In this document: positions 1 through 10,373 of the stretch, one piece after another
Layout of the letters: each line of letters begins with the position of its first letter
How positions within the stretch are numbered: position 1 is the first letter of the stretch
IMG/VR virus record: IMGVR_UViG_3300028800_000066
Coordinates: 72,207-88,435 of that record
Reading direction: 5' to 3' (one strand)
Source: a virus
Taxonomy: Duplodnaviria > Heunggongvirae > Uroviricota > Caudoviricetes
DNA: 16,229 nucleotides
The notes under the pieces: generated by a model
What the model was told of the DNA's origin: nothing
The model's database searches: none
The model's input: the letters and a program-made list of their open reading frames with translations, nothing else
Program-made: the position numbers and the translations under genes

Positions 1-1096
1 TGGTCGATTTAACTTTAAATAATCCGTGATTAGATTATCCAAATCACCATCGAGAATATCTTCTACTGGTCTATATTCTTTTCCGGTGCGTTCATCTACT
101 ACTACTTGTCTAGAATGAACAACGTAAGTTCTGATTTGATGCCCAAAACTCACATCACTTTTTTCACCAGACAAATCTTCAATCTTTTTCTTTTGTTCTG
201 TTTCAGCCAAGTAAGCCAATCTATTTTTAAGTTGCGCCAGAGCCATTTCTTTATTTTCACCCTGACTTCTGCTATCTTCGCTTCTAACTATTATTCCTGT
301 GGGCAAATGTTTTATTCTTACTGCGGTTTCAACTTTGTTTCTGTGTTGACCGCCAGGACCACTTGCTCTATAGATATCAATCTCAATTTCTGATTTATCT
401 ATTTTTATTTCTTCAATGTCTTCAAGAATTGGAATCAAATCAACTCTTGCAAACGATGTTTGTCTTCTCTGATTAGAATCGAAAGGTGAGACTCGCATGA
501 ATCGGTGAACGCCTTTTTCAGACCTCATCAATCCGTAAACAGAATCCCCTTCTATTTTCAAAGTCACTGTTTTAATTCCAGCTTCAATTCCATACTGGAT
601 ATCCAACAGTGTGACTTTGAAACCTTTCTTTTCTGCCCAACGACCATACATTCTTAAAAGAATTTCGGTCCAATCTTGACTTTCAGTTCCACCAGCACCA
701 GATTGTATAGTTAGTATTGCGCCATTAGAATCATATGGTCCAGAAAACATTCTAGCTACTTCTAAATTCTTTAACCTATTATTTAGGTCATATAACCTAG
801 AATCTAGTTCGTTCTCAAGTTCTCTATCTTCGCATGTTTGTAGAATTTCCAAACCAGCTTCTACATCTGACAACACGTTTTTGATAGAACGGCAAACTTC
901 AACAATCTTCTTTGTAGAACTTAACTCTTTTTGTTTCTGCTTGGCAATTCTTGTATCTTGCCAAAAACTTTCGGATAACATTTCATGTTCAATTCGTTTT
1001 ACTGAGATTTCTTTATTCTCAGCGTCAAAGCGACACCAAGCTCTCCATTACACGATTGGAAGCTAGGTTATATTCTTTGACTAGACGATGTTCCAT
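1..1096 (-). CDS. prfB: Peptide chain release factor 2 with programmed +1 frameshift; 3' end runs off the window
   Basis: ATG at 1096 after AGGAG; 23 codons to CTT TGA C (1030-1024); +1 frame reads DAENKEIS...FWQD...SGAGGTESQDW...GVHRFMRVSPFDS (SPF)...ASGPGGQHRNK (GGQ)...GHQIRTYV...ILDGDLD, open to position 1. Absent from the ORF track. Confidence 0.97.
1024..1039 (-). promoter_or_regulatory. prfB frameshift site CTTTGAC with upstream SD-like GGTG
   Basis: Minus strand TTGGTG TCG CTT TGA C; same spacing as E. coli AGGGGG TAT CTT TGA C. Confidence 0.9.
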
Positions 1097-1292: not shown

Positions 1293-1432
1293 AATCTTGA
1301 ACAAGTGTTGATATCCGATATGCCTTGCGGCTCCGCTGTTCTACCGTTGAACTAAACCTTCCGAGGAAGGCTAGAGGAATTGAACCTCTATTCGCAGATT
1401 GATAGATAACGAATTATCCTCGGCCCAAGATT
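1293..1432 (-). ncRNA. YrlA-type Y RNA (Ro-binding stem plus permuted tRNA-like domain)
   Basis: AATCTTGGGCCGAGG pairs with ACTTGTTCAAGATT; inside T arm TAGAGG-TTCAATT-CCTCTA, loop-closed acceptor GCCTTCC-TC-GGAAGGT, D arm GTTC-AACGGTA-GAAC. Confidence 0.8.
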
Positions 1433-4490: not shown

Positions 4491-4562
4491 TGCAACCTAC
4501 AGGAATTGAACCTGTTGCCTCTTCGATGTCAACGAAGCGTTCTACCAATGAACTAAGGTTGC
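4491..4562 (-). tRNA. tRNA-Val(GAC)
   Basis: GCAACCT/AGGTTGC, CTTCG-TTGACAT-CGAAG. Confidence 0.93.
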
Positions 4563-4903
4563 GTTCTTTTATAATCGTCTTGAATTCTTATTATATCTTC
4601 TTCAAGACATACACCAAATTGAACTTCCAAAATTACTAAATCAGTTTTCTTACTCGTGTTCACTATTCTGTGAATCAATTCTTTTGGAACGTATACTACA
4701 ACACCTTTTTTCAATGGATGTTCAATCCCCGCTTCATCCAATATTGCTTTTCCTCGTCCTTTTAAAACATACCAAATTTCTGTTCGTTGCAAATGCTTTT
4801 GTAAACTCAATCTTTGCCTTGGTTTTACTACCAACTTTTTAGTCTTTGAATCGTTTGTTGCGACTAAAGTTTCAAAATAACCCCAAGGTCTATTTTCTAT
4901 CAT
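4553..4903 (-). CDS. Cupin protein, mannose-6-phosphate isomerase type II C-terminal-like
   Basis: ENRPWGYFETL...KKLVVKPRQRLSLQKH..RTEIW...HRIVN...VILEVQFG..LEEDIIRIQDDY. Confidence 0.88.
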   Translation of the reverse strand: MIENRPWGYFETLVATNDSKTKKLVVKPRQRLSLQKHLQRTEIWYVLKGRGKAILDEAGIEHPLKKGVVVYVPKELIHRIVNTSKKTDLVILEVQFGVCLEEDIIRIQDDYKRTQP

Positions 4904-8558: not shown

Positions 8559-8942
8559 TTATTTTACGGAAACAACAATTCCCGCATCTGTTAATTTCTT
8601 CTGCAACTCTTCCGCCCTTGCCTTGTCAACATCTTCCGCAACCATCTTGGGAAGACCGTCAACGAAATCTTTTGCTTCTTTCAAACCAATTCCAAGAATT
8701 TCTCTCACTGCTTTAATTGCGCCCATCTTCTTTTCCATAGGCACCGAATCAGCATTCACCATGAAACTATTTTTTGCTGGTCCAGTTGCAAGTGCCGTTC
8801 CATCGGGAGCTACTTCTGTTCTCTGAGTCTGATAAGCCGTAACTGGCTGGCCCAAGGCTCTCTGTAGTGAAGCGACTAAATTTGCCAAATCCATCACAGA
8901 CATTTTATCAATCTCTTGCATTAACTTTGAATTCGTGTTCAT
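8559..8942 (-). CDS. rplL: Ribosomal protein bL12 (L7/L12)
   Basis: IDKMSVMDLANLV N-terminal domain; KKMGAIKAVREILGIGLKEAKDFVDGLPKMVAEDVDKARAEELQKKLTDAG C-terminal domain. Confidence 0.93.
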   Translation of the reverse strand: MNTNSKLMQEIDKMSVMDLANLVASLQRALGQPVTAYQTQRTEVAPDGTALATGPAKNSFMVNADSVPMEKKMGAIKAVREILGIGLKEAKDFVDGLPKMVAEDVDKARAEELQKKLTDAGIVVSVK

Positions 8943-9672: not shown

Positions 9673-9810
9673 TTTTTGAGCAAGTAGCGACATTCGATAT
9701 GCCTTGCGGCTCCGCTGTTCTACCGTTGAACTAAACCTCCCGAGGAAGGCTAGAGGAATTGAACCTCTATTCGCAGATTTAATGATAACGAATTATCATC
9801 GGCTCAAAAA
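9673..9810 (-). ncRNA. YrlA-type Y RNA, near-identical to 1293-1432
   Basis: TTTTTGAGCCGATG / ACTTGCTCAAAAA; 9695-9779 matches 1316-1400 at 84 of 85 nt by manual comparison. Confidence 0.8.
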
Positions 9811-9818
9811 ACTTTTAT

Positions 9819-9931
9819 AATCGAACAAGTAGTGTCTTTGCGAGGCCCCACTTTCGGGCGACTTTCGTTCCACCTTGCGGCTTCACAATCGTCTTCTGTA
9901 TGATAGATAACGCATCAACTTCGGCTCGATT
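9819..9931 (-). ncRNA. Y RNA-like element with tetraloop hairpins, no tRNA domain
   Basis: AATCGAGCCGAAG / ACTTGTTCGATT, CGTTATC motif, GCAA and GAAA loops. Confidence 0.7.
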
Positions 9932-9948
9932 AAACTTTTGTTTGAAGA

Positions 9949-10216
9949 TTCAAATTAAGCAAGTATTGTGCTCTGGAACGCTTGGATACGTTGTTCTGTT
10001 TTCCTTACGTGGACATTTACCTCTCGGTGGAAACATTGTCATTGTTTCCTTGACATTTACCAGTGGCGGTGGAATTGCCAGTCCACACTTAAACTTAGCA
10101 GAGGTGAAGTAACTTCGGGCTTCTAAGAAATATCCTTTAGTCTCACTTGCGGCAAGGTCGTTACCCCTTGCTCTCAACCAGAGTATGATAACCAGTCCCA
10201 CTTCGGCTTATTTGAA
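9949..10216 (-). ncRNA. Giant (268 nt) Y RNA-like element
   Basis: TTCAAATAAGCCGAAG / ACTTGCTTAATTTGAA, GGTTATC motif, large multi-stem interior. Confidence 0.65.
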
Positions 10217-10256
10217 TTTTCAAAGAACAGTTCAAAACTTTTTACGTTTTAAAGTA

Positions 10257-10338
10257 AAGCTAGGCAAGTATCGTAATTCGGTATGCCTTGCGGCGTTCAT
10301 GAATGATATGAGATAACGAATCCACATCGGCCTAACTT
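10257..10338 (-). ncRNA. Short Y RNA-like element (82 nt)
   Basis: AAGTTAGGCCGATG / ACTTGCCTAGCTT, TTCGTTATCT, GCC-GCAA-GGC hairpin. Confidence 0.72.
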
Positions 10339-10344
10339 GAATAC

Positions 10345-10373
10345 ATTATATCACATTGCTCTTGATAAATCAA
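10345..10373 (-). promoter_or_regulatory. sigma70-type promoter for the Y RNA-like array
   Basis: TTGATT-17-TATAAT with TGn; start site would fall at the first element. Confidence 0.75.

What the first reader, a model, noticed from the sequence alone, without database searches (positions are those of the whole stretch)
9949..10216. Giant Y RNA-like element with a possible pseudoknotted interior
The Ro handle encloses about 220 nt with stems CTCTGG/CCAGAG, GCAAGG/CCTTGC, GGATA/TATCC and GGAAACA/TGTTTCC, two crossing 6-bp pairings (ACCTCT 10105-10100 with AGAGGT 10024-10019; GTGGAC 10086-10081 with GTCCAC 10014-10009), and a 10-nt direct repeat GGTAAATGTC (10052-10061, 10012-10021). This is about twice the size of known bacterial Y RNAs and complex enough for a catalytic or scaffold domain (inference).
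Basis: partly seen in the sequence, partly recalled or inferred. Interest (0 to 1): 0.72.

Follow-up and report, generated by a model that had tools for sequence, protein, structure and literature searches.

The report
Oversized phage Y RNA with pseudoknots
An uncultured soil phage that carries its own Ro60 protein encodes a Y RNA-like molecule of about 250-285 bases, two to three times the usual size. Its conserved, intricately folded inner domain is not a tRNA mimic and probably links Ro60 to an unknown partner.

Summary
The element is real and lies on the minus strand (about 10224-9941). It is the second gene of a promoter-driven operon of four Y RNA-like genes, in a phage fragment that also encodes a Ro60/Rsr protein.

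- **Ro60 motif:** it carries GCCGAAG with a bulged C, opposite ACUUGC.
- **Homologs:** eight distinct orthologs (201-267 nt between the handle motifs) sit at the same place in related uncultured phage contigs.
- **Structure:** the alignment folds far better than column shuffles (z = -6.6), and 22 of 42 predicted pairs show compensatory changes.
- **ORF:** the 83-aa ORF is not conserved and is a chance open frame.
- **Expression:** peat RNA-library contigs of 272 and 285 nt, from two studies, cover just this RNA.

His two crossing pairings are not supported. Two other candidate pseudoknots show compensatory changes. His 10-nt repeat is the visible part of a tandem duplication of a roughly 40-nt hairpin-plus-motif unit.

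No Rfam family matches, and I found no tRNA-like or ribozyme signature. My best reading is a Ro60-tethering Y RNA paralog with a new effector module. This scan has already noted giant Y-like RNAs in other phages, but none resembles this one in sequence. I class it as a new variant of a known kind.

The parts
10345..10373 (-). Sigma-70-type promoter (TTGATT, 17 nt, TATAAT, with TG) of the four-gene Y RNA operon E1-E2-E3-E4
   Evidence: 10 of 12 matches. No other promoter-like site lies on this strand before 9655.
10263..10332 (-). E1, a small Y RNA-like gene (70 nt) just upstream of the finding
   Evidence: Orthologs occur in L028, L035, L037 and L029.
9941..10224 (-). E2, the finding: the whole hairpin-closed RNA (284 nt including the extended terminal stem)
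   Evidence: Eight orthologs. RNA-library contigs cover 9925-10207 and 9943-10206.
10208..10224 (-). 5' strand of the terminal stem; pairs with 9941-9958
   Evidence: the sequence varies between homologs and stays complementary (A-U to G-C changes).
10201..10207 (-). GCCGAAG, the Ro60-binding motif GNCGAA-N0-1-G, with C10205 bulged; pairs with ACUUGC 9959-9964
   Evidence: (invariant in 8 of 8). Motif definition from PMC4201824; the role of CGAA in phage Ro60 binding from PMC12135203.
10187..10201 (-). Upper handle: GUG (pairs with CAC 9968-9970), CUGG 10195-10192 (pairs with CCAG 9973-9976), then the family-wide GUUAUC motif
   Evidence: Nearly invariant. One double change in L032 (CUGA/UCAG), which is weak evidence.
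10152..10171 (-).
   Evidence: each of the 8 homologs has a different 5-7 bp stem here.
10098..10150 (-). P3: GCA/UGC plus GUGAG/UUCAC, with an invariant CUC bulge, enclosing the variable hairpin V1 (10109-10141)
   Evidence: Columns 84-147, 85-146 and 79-154 are among the best covarying pairs.
10087..10097 (-). Conserved single-stranded joiner AAGU-Y-UAAGU. GUU 10094-10092 is the candidate partner of P2-loop AAC 10162-10160 (pseudoknot PK1)
   Evidence: The varying pair is A-U three times, U-A once and G-C four times across the 8 sequences.
10052..10086 (-). Unit A: P4 hairpin (GUGGA/UCCAC, loop CUGGCAAU), then GCC-ACU-GGU, then UAAAUGUC. Loop GGCA 10079-10076 can pair with UGUC 10055-10052 (PK2a)
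   Evidence: (P4 covaries at 4 positions).
10012..10049 (-). Unit B, present only in the four long forms: hairpin GGAAACA/UGUUUCC with loop AUGACAA, then the mini hairpin ACC-GAGA-GGU (GNRA-type loop), then UAAAUGUC. Loop GACA 10040-10037 can pair with UGUC 10015-10012 (PK2b)
9978..10010 (-). P6 (ACGU/GCGU) closing the variable hairpin V2
   Evidence: Two positions show compensatory changes (C-G, U-G, G-C; C-G to A-U).
9941..9976 (-). 3' handle strand: CCAG, AG, CAC, AAUAC, UUGC, then the 3' strand of the terminal stem
9824..9926 (-). E3, the next Y RNA-like gene (103 nt); weak match to nematode stem-bulge RNA
   Evidence: (RF01656, E = 0.041, below the gathering score).
9679..9804 (-). E4, a YrlA-type Y RNA with T-arm-like and D-arm-like hairpins
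   Evidence: (YrlA partial match, E = 0.51).

Best explanation
E2 is a non-coding RNA gene of the Y RNA kind. It is transcribed from the promoter at 10373-10345 as the second of four Y RNAs and cut out of that precursor.

Its paired ends carry the Ro60 docking site: GCCGAAG with a bulged C, opposite ACUUGC. This site most likely binds the phage's own Ro60/Rsr ring protein. Other bacterial and phage Y RNAs carry a tRNA-like or short loop module. E2 instead carries a conserved multi-helix domain of 160-230 nt: P2, P3, P4 and P6 around a junction, one or two copies of a hairpin-plus-UAAAUGUC unit, and probably two small pseudoknots.

By analogy with Deinococcus Rsr-Yrn1-PNPase and with Thermus phage phiLo Ro60-Yrl-PNPase, this domain would act as the effector end of a tether. 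It would bring Ro60 together with a partner protein or RNA different from the partner of the phage's tRNA-like Y RNAs.

Shown: the gene, its conservation, its fold, the motif, the Ro60 gene in the same genome, and its presence in RNA libraries. Inferred: Ro60 binding. Guessed: the tether role and the identity of the partner.
For: - **Ro60 gene in the same genome:** a TROVE protein of 567 aa is encoded on the same phage fragment (E = 6.7e-40, 132 bits, over the Pfam cut-off).
- **Specific handle pattern:** it occurs 7 times in the window against 0.01 expected, always on the gene-coding strand.
- **Invariant docking motif:** GCCGAAG is invariant in all 8 orthologs. It fits GNCGAA-N0-1-G (PMC4201824). 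Each CGAA base matters for binding by a phage Ro60 (PMC12135203).
- **Conserved position:** orthologs sit downstream of RecA and DUF1858 in contigs whose RecA is 70-83% identical, and the order E1-E2-E3-E4 is kept.
- **Conserved structure:** 42 consensus pairs, 22 with compensatory changes. Alignment fold z = -6.6. Sixteen column pairs reach the strong covariation score against 4.5 expected. Separately folded segments give the same helices in all 8 sequences.
- **Not coding:** the homologs have stops in every sense frame, with longest open stretches of 32-45 aa in three of them. The ORF product matches no Pfam family.
- **RNA libraries:** peat metatranscriptome contigs of 285, 272 and 162 nt lie within or barely beyond E2, from different studies.
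Against: - No Rfam Y RNA model (Y_RNA, YrlA, sbRNA) reaches even E = 10 on E2.
- A covariance model built from the neighbouring small Y RNA E1 does not reach E2. This may only reflect the size of the insert.
- The Ro60 gene lies about 18 kb away, not next to E2.
- Ro60 binding was not tested and cannot be tested with these tools.
- The upper handle is ambiguous: GUG/CAC plus CUGG/CCAG, or AAGUG/UACUU.
- The RNA-library contigs are assemblies. I could not lay a silent control stretch, so DNA carry-over is not excluded.
- Nothing identifies a partner.
Confidence: 0.6

Rival explanations
1. Cargo on a clamp. The Y-type terminal helix serves mainly as a processing and stability clamp in a multi-RNA precursor. 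The inner domain acts on its own, for example as a decoy or sponge for a host protein or defence factor, without Ro60.
For: The interior has its own conserved single-stranded motifs (UAAAUGUC, AAGU-Y-UAAGU, the CUC bulge). One unit is duplicated in half of the homologs, as expected for a binding site that works by copy number. Ro60 is not adjacent.
Against: The invariant part of the handle is exactly the Ro60 contact motif, not just any helix. It is shared by at least seven RNAs of a genome that encodes Ro60. A clamp alone would not need a conserved bulged C and CGAA.
Confidence: 0.2
2. The interior is a self-cleaving or otherwise catalytic RNA built on the reader's two crossing helices.
For: The domain is large and ornate, with candidate pseudoknots.
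Against: No ribozyme or any other Rfam family at E <= 10. ACCUCU/AGAGGU has no partner in the four short forms. RNA-library contigs run uncut across the core from about 9943 to 10095.
Confidence: 0.03
3. The stretch encodes the 83-aa protein (9950-10201, minus strand, GTG start).
For: The frame is open in the window.
Against: The frame is closed in the homologs: the longest sense-strand open stretches are 32 aa in L037, 40 in L046 and 45 in L032. Indels are not multiples of three. No Pfam match. The start codon lies inside the invariant Ro motif. Substitutions follow base-pairing, not codon positions.
Confidence: 0.01
4. Two RNAs, not one: an ordinary small Y RNA interrupted by an inserted mobile or intron-like element that is later removed.
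For: Length differs by indel blocks (201-267 nt between the handle motifs), and one roughly 40-nt block is present or absent.
Against: All eight orthologs keep the same core helices between the handle strands. The smallest still has about 200 nt. No form lacking the interior was found. No intron or transposon family matched. RNA contigs contain the interior.
Confidence: 0.04

Closest known systems
Bacterial and phage YrlA / YrlB Y RNAs (Rfam RF02553; Chen et al. 2014, PMC4201824)
   Same: The ends pair into a long stem. The GNCGAA-N0-1-G motif sits in the 5' strand. The genome encodes Ro60/Rsr. Several paralogs occur per genome. Phage examples are already known.
   Different: E2 has no T-arm, D-arm or acceptor-like stem, and gets no YrlA model match even at E = 10. 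It measures 201-267 nt between the handle motifs against a 114-position YrlA consensus. It has a different multi-helix domain with candidate pseudoknots. It lies 18 kb from the Ro60 gene, in a dedicated RNA operon.
Yrl1 and Yrl2 of Thermus phage phiLo with phage Ro60 and host PNPase (PMC12135203)
   Same: Phage-encoded Ro60 plus phage-encoded Y-like RNAs with a CGAA motif in a stem-bulge-stem. This is the only biochemically studied phage case. It gives the working model that the RNP engages host PNPase.
   Different: The phiLo RNAs are small hairpins next to the Ro60 gene (the stem-bulge of Yrl2 spans G4-C15 and G48-G59). E2 is several times larger and has a conserved complex interior.
Deinococcus radiodurans Yrn1 in the Ro60-Y RNA-PNPase particle (as summarised in PMC4201824)
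   Same: A two-module design: a Ro60-binding stem plus a distal effector module that binds another protein.
   Different: The Yrn1 effector module is tRNA-like and small. No partner is known for E2.
Metazoan Y RNAs and nematode stem-bulge RNAs (Rfam RF00019, RF01656)
   Same: A bulged-C helix made of both strands (..CCGA.. opposite ..CUUG..). The neighbouring paralog E3 gives a weak match to the nematode family (E = 0.041).
   Different: No match for E2 itself. They belong to a different domain of life, and their interior loop is small and little structured.
Giant Y-like RNAs noted earlier by this scan in other phages (e1-5321315, 286 nt; e1-5350312, about 305 nt; e1-5364825)
   Same: By those notes, a Ro-type handle around an oversized non-tRNA interior in Ro60-encoding giant phages.
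   Different: No shared sequence words with E2. Those lie next to the Ro60 gene. I did not examine them.

Membership tests
Y RNA (broad sense: Ro60-binding RNAs) | 5' and 3' ends pair into a terminal stem | tested here: met
   a stem of about 17-19 bp whose sequence varies between homologs and stays complementary.
Y RNA (broad sense: Ro60-binding RNAs) | Conserved Ro60 contact motif GNCGAA-N0-1-G in the 5' strand, with a bulged C opposite ..CUUG.. | tested here: met
   GCCGAAG 10207-10201 and ACUUGC 9964-9959. The 5' motif is invariant in 8 of 8; the 3' word is the same in 7 of 8, with one C-to-U change in L032. Motif definition from PMC4201824.
Y RNA (broad sense: Ro60-binding RNAs) | A Ro60/Rsr (TROVE) protein is encoded by the same genome | tested here: met
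   E = 6.7e-40, over the cut-off; 567-aa ORF. It lies about 18 kb from E2, not adjacent. Whole contigs of the E2-bearing relatives could not be searched.
Y RNA (broad sense: Ro60-binding RNAs) | Physical binding to Ro60 | not testable with these tools
   Needs a gel-shift assay or co-purification.
YrlA (Rfam RF02553) | Score at or above the family's gathering threshold (69 bits) | tested here: not met
   No match at E <= 10 on E2. Only the paralog E4 gives a partial 19-bit match.
YrlA (Rfam RF02553) | tRNA-like domain (T arm, D arm, acceptor-like stem) | tested here: not met
   No tRNA, tmRNA or YrlA signal over E2. The P4 loop is N-U-G-R-Y-A-A, not a T loop.
Metazoan Y_RNA / nematode sbRNA (RF00019, RF01656) | Covariance-model match | tested here: not met
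This phage clade's own Y RNA set (E1, E3-E7) | Shared 5' word GCCGA-N6-16-GUUAUC and 3' word ACUUG-Y-Y on the gene strand | tested here: met
This phage clade's own Y RNA set (E1, E3-E7) | Recognition by a covariance model built from a paralog (E1 class, model R1) | tested here: inconclusive
   R1 finds E1 and E5 only. An insert of about 200 nt is probably beyond what the model allows.
Self-cleaving ribozymes (all Rfam classes) | Match to any class model | tested here: not met

The most novel reading that the evidence does not exclude
E2 defines a new class of Ro60 partner RNA. Its effector end is not a tRNA mimic. It is a junction carrying one or two tandem H-type pseudoknot units: a hairpin loop GRYA pairing with URYC in the downstream UAAAUGUC motif. 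Each unit would be a docking site for a still unknown phage or host factor. Under this reading a phage equips one Ro60 ring with different adaptor RNAs (ten paralogs in this window) to aim it at different targets during takeover of the host translation and RNA-decay machinery.
Probability: 0.3. Interest if true: 0.75.

Novelty: new variant of a known kind. Interest (0 to 1): 0.55.

Why it matters
Y RNAs are thought to work as tethers whose distal module chooses the partner of Ro60. In bacteria and phages the only described module is a tRNA mimic or a short loop. E2 is a conserved RNA that appears in RNA libraries, has the canonical Ro60 site, and carries a quite different module two to three times larger. 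It sits in a phage with about ten Y RNA paralogs, its own Ro60, 23 tRNA genes in this window alone, a ribosomal L7/L12 gene and a release factor. That suggests the Ro60 system can be re-aimed by swapping RNA adaptors. The case offers a concrete RNA with defined helices, candidate pseudoknots and a duplicated motif. These can be used for pull-downs to find new Ro60 partners, and to ask what phage Ro60 particles do during infection.

Tried and rejected
- **DNA similarity searches:** BLAST of the whole Y RNA operon against 50,697 phage records found nothing. BLAST against five related IMG/VR records found only chance words.
- **Exact pattern searches with the 5' handle:** none in viral contigs and none in genome contigs. 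Metagenome contigs gave 4 hits: two already known, one new ortholog (L042) and one chance hit in a GC-rich coding region (L041).
- **More distant relatives:** relatives with RecA at 40-53% identity and with Ro60 at 47% identity (L011-L020, L060/61, G001-G005) have no E2-like RNA. G001 has four small Y RNAs (53-87 nt) just upstream of its Ro60 gene.
- **Covariance models:** The E1-based model R1 did not reach E2 and is uninformative.
- **Single column-pair covariation:** with 8 sequences a lenient criterion gives 137 pairs against 129 under the null. No single pair exceeds the 95th percentile of the null maximum. PK1, PK2 and the CUGG/CCAG double change therefore remain candidates, not proven pairs.
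- **Complementary targets:** a search of the 88-kb fragment for targets complementary to UAAAUGUC or to the AAGU-Y-UAAGU joiner found nothing convincing.
- **Other pairings considered:** UUAUC with GGUAA, and the AGU/ACU helix around P4. These are invariant or inconsistent between homologs and were not pursued.
- **RNA-library contig ends and gaps:** two contigs from two studies stop at 10206/10207, the start of GCCGAAG. I treat this as a weak hint at most, because strain variation in the terminal stem could break an assembly there. Parts of the stretch without RNA-contig cover (E1, E3) are not evidence of anything.
- **Rejected readings:** the 83-aa ORF, a tRNA-like reading of P4, and a kink-turn reading of the CUC bulge.

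Full report
**Setting.** The window is the last 16.2 kb of an 88-kb IMG/VR phage fragment that CheckV estimates at 52% complete. All its genes lie on the minus strand. It holds 23 tRNA genes, a class-I release factor, RecA and endonuclease VII, and a ribosomal protein L7/L12 gene. The same fragment encodes a Ro60/Rsr protein (TROVE domain, E = 6.7e-40, 567 aa) about 18 kb from the finding.

**The observation.** Read on the minus strand, the flagged stretch begins with a terminal stem. Then comes GCCGAAG (10207-10201). It ends with ACUUGC (9964-9959) and the other strand of the stem.

- A simple two-part handle pattern finds seven such genes in the fragment, all on the coding strand. The 5' half alone occurs 7 times in the window against 0.01 expected.
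- The finding (E2) is the second gene of an operon E1-E2-E3-E4. The operon lies behind a strong promoter at 10373-10345. A second promoter at 9655-9627 starts the next unit.
- E4 has the T-arm-like and D-arm-like hairpins of YrlA, and E3 weakly matches nematode stem-bulge RNA.
- E2 matches no Rfam family, even at E = 10.

**Homologs.** DNA searches in phage and viral collections found nothing, so I went through the neighbouring RecA gene. Proteins 70-87% identical exist in soil, peat and sediment assemblies. Their contigs keep the order RecA, two small genes, DUF1858, sometimes a sigma factor, and then the Y RNA array.

- A pattern scan and an nhmmer profile recovered E2 orthologs in L028, L035, L036, L037 (also L038-40), L046 and L032. 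A metagenome pattern search added L042.
- With the window copy that makes eight distinct sequences, 201 to 267 nt between the handle motifs.
- Contigs L029 and L030 have only E1, followed by an IS605-type TnpB gene.
- More distant relatives lack E2. One of them (G001, Ro60 47% identical) has four small Y RNAs directly upstream of its Ro60 gene.

**Not a protein.** The 83-aa frame is open only in the window. Three homologs have no sense-strand open stretch above 45 aa. Indels are not in threes, and the GTG start lies inside the invariant Ro motif. The product matches no Pfam family.

**Structure.** The single-sequence fold is unremarkable (z = -1.67), but the alignment is not.

- RNAalifold gives 42 consensus pairs, 22 of them with compensatory changes.
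- The consensus energy is 6.6 standard deviations below 200 column-shuffled alignments.
- Folding each inter-anchor segment of each homolog separately gives the same helices every time.

In window coordinates the model reads as follows:

- terminal stem 10224-10208 with 9958-9941;
- GC/GC, bulged C10205, then GA/UU;
- GUG/CAC, then CUGG 10195-10192 with CCAG 9976-9973;
- the family-wide GUUAUC;
- P2 (10171-10152), whose stem differs in all eight sequences and whose loop keeps U-R-A-C-G;
- P3 (GCA/UGC plus GUGAG/UUCAC) with an invariant CUC bulge, enclosing a variable hairpin;
- a conserved joiner AAGU-Y-UAAGU;
- P4 (10086-10069);
- a conserved stretch ending in UAAAUGUCCACG;
- P6 (10010-10007 with 9981-9978), closing a second variable hairpin.

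The upper handle is ambiguous. An alternative pairing, AAGUG/UACUU, is equally compatible with the data.

- GCAAGG/CCUUGC is P2 and is well supported.
- GGAAACA/UGUUUCC is real. It exists only in the four long forms and shows an A-U to C-G change in L035.
- CUCUGG/CCAGAG is the minimum-free-energy choice in the window, but CUCUGG is not conserved. The invariant CUGG four bases upstream can take the same partner.
- GGAUA/UAUCC joins two variable regions and has no counterpart elsewhere.
- Of the two crossing pairings, GUGGAC/GUCCAC fails in L046, L037, L036 and L032. In each of these the local P4 partner compensates and GUCCAC does not.
- ACCUCU/AGAGGU has no 3' partner in the four short forms, although CCUCU is nearly invariant there too (CCACU in L037). 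Its 3' word is better read as a CC-GAGA-GG mini hairpin with a GNRA-type loop, which is GAAA in L035.

**What the repeat is.** The 10-nt repeat is the end of a longer unit. The unit consists of a hairpin with a 7-nt loop N-U-G-R-Y-A-A, then CC-loop-GG, then UAAAUGUC. Short forms have one unit (P4). Long forms have two in tandem: P4, then the GGAAACA hairpin, whose loop AUGACAA equals the P4 loop of L036 and L032. Long and short forms are interspersed among relatives.

**Candidate pseudoknots.** Two are suggested.

- **PK2.** In every unit the loop tetranucleotide can pair with the motif downstream: GACA with UGUC, GGCA with UGCC (L042 unit A, L037), GAUA with UAUC (L028), and GGCA with UGUC through one wobble. 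Dealing the motifs at random among the eight P4 loops keeps all of them pairable with probability about 0.04 (my count). The loop lengths are compatible with an H-type pseudoknot.
- **PK1.** The P2 loop R-A-C can pair with G-U-Y in the joiner. The varying pair is A-U in three sequences, U-A in one and G-C in four.

With eight sequences no single column pair is significant on its own. There is, however, an excess of strongly covarying pairs, 16 against 4.5 expected, and most of them lie in the helices above.

**Expression.** Twenty-four public runs hold the stretch or a part of it. Most are rhizosphere and peat DNA, and six are peat or permafrost metatranscriptomes. I laid four RNA runs on the stretch.

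- X18 has a 285-nt contig covering 9925-10207.
- X24, from another study, has a 272-nt contig covering 9943-10206.
- X19 has a 162-nt contig (9973-10134) identical to the window.
- The first two come from a variant in which 83 other letters replace 10096-10176, that is P2 and most of P3 with V1.

Contigs of about the RNA's size, confined to it, in RNA libraries of different studies fit a stable, abundant RNA. They are assemblies, I could not lay a silent control, and contig ends prove no RNA ends.

**Mechanism.**

- **Shown:** a conserved, structured, non-coding gene with the Ro60 contact motif, in a genome that encodes Ro60.
- **From the literature:** the motif GNCGAA-N0-1-G marks Ro60 binding in bacterial and phage Y RNAs (PMC4201824). 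In Thermus phage phiLo each CGAA base contributes to binding of the phage Ro60, and Ro60, Yrl RNA and host PNPase form a ternary particle (PMC12135203).
- **Inferred:** E2 binds the phage Ro60 through its handle and presents its interior as the effector end of a tether. Because the same phage also has tRNA-like paralogs (E4, E6, E7, E8) and minimal ones (E1, E5), E2 probably addresses a different partner.

The main rival is that the handle is only a clamp and the interior acts without Ro60. Catalysis, coding and an inserted mobile element are unlikely.

**Novelty.** Phage Ro60 and phage Y RNAs are known. I found no paper describing a Y RNA of this size or with this module. Earlier notes of this scan report giant Y-like RNAs next to Ro60 in other phages. 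None shares sequence with E2, and I did not check them. I class E2 as a new variant of a known kind.

Noticed in passing
window 8559-8942 (-) and 1-981 (-): The phage encodes a ribosomal protein L7/L12 (PF00542, E = 3e-20) and a class-I peptide release factor (PCRF and RF-1 domains), next to the tRNA and Y RNA islands. Relatives L036 and L046 also have L7/L12 just downstream of their Y RNA array.
   Followed up: partly
window 9784-9803, 1559-1578, 1405-1424 (-): In the tRNA-like paralogs E4, E6 and E7 the 5' handle can instead fold into a local hairpin GAUAA-UUCG-UUAUC (UUCG loop, up to 8 bp, with a U-A to A-U change between E4 and E6). This excludes the long-range helix with CGAAUGUC, so it may be a switch. 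E2 cannot form it.
   Followed up: no
window 10263-10332 (-), alignment A4: The loop of the small Y RNA E1 begins GUUAUCUCAU and forms a UCAU..AUGA hairpin, conserved in five relatives. From memory, human Y1 RNA has a very similar GUUAUCUCA at the same place. I did not check this against a sequence.
   Followed up: no
window 9818-9933 (-): E3 gives a full-length but sub-threshold match to the nematode stem-bulge RNA family RF01656 (23.5 bits, E = 0.041). Stem-bulge RNAs are, from my background knowledge, the nematode Y RNA homologs.
   Followed up: no
L029:13043-14490 and L030:9103-10550: In one close relative (RecA 83% identical) only the E1-type Y RNA is present. An IS605-type TnpB gene follows where the rest of the array would be.
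   Followed up: no
L054:1434-1838 (-) = G001 about 106.2-106.6 kb: A 212-kb phage with a Ro60 47% identical to this one has four small Y RNA-like hairpins (53-87 nt) directly upstream of its Ro60 gene. They carry GCCGA and GGUUAUC, so the GUUAUC word goes with the Ro handle across distant phages.
   Followed up: partly
window 10330 and 10206/10207: RNA-library contigs from different runs end exactly at the first bases of the GCCGA motif of E1 (approached from upstream) and of E2 (approached from inside). This could be an assembly effect of strain variation, or a reverse-transcription or processing boundary.
   Followed up: no
window 4553-4903 (-): A cupin / mannose-6-phosphate isomerase C-terminal-like protein (116 aa, E = 1.7e-21) is encoded between tRNA genes and Y RNA-like genes.
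   Followed up: no
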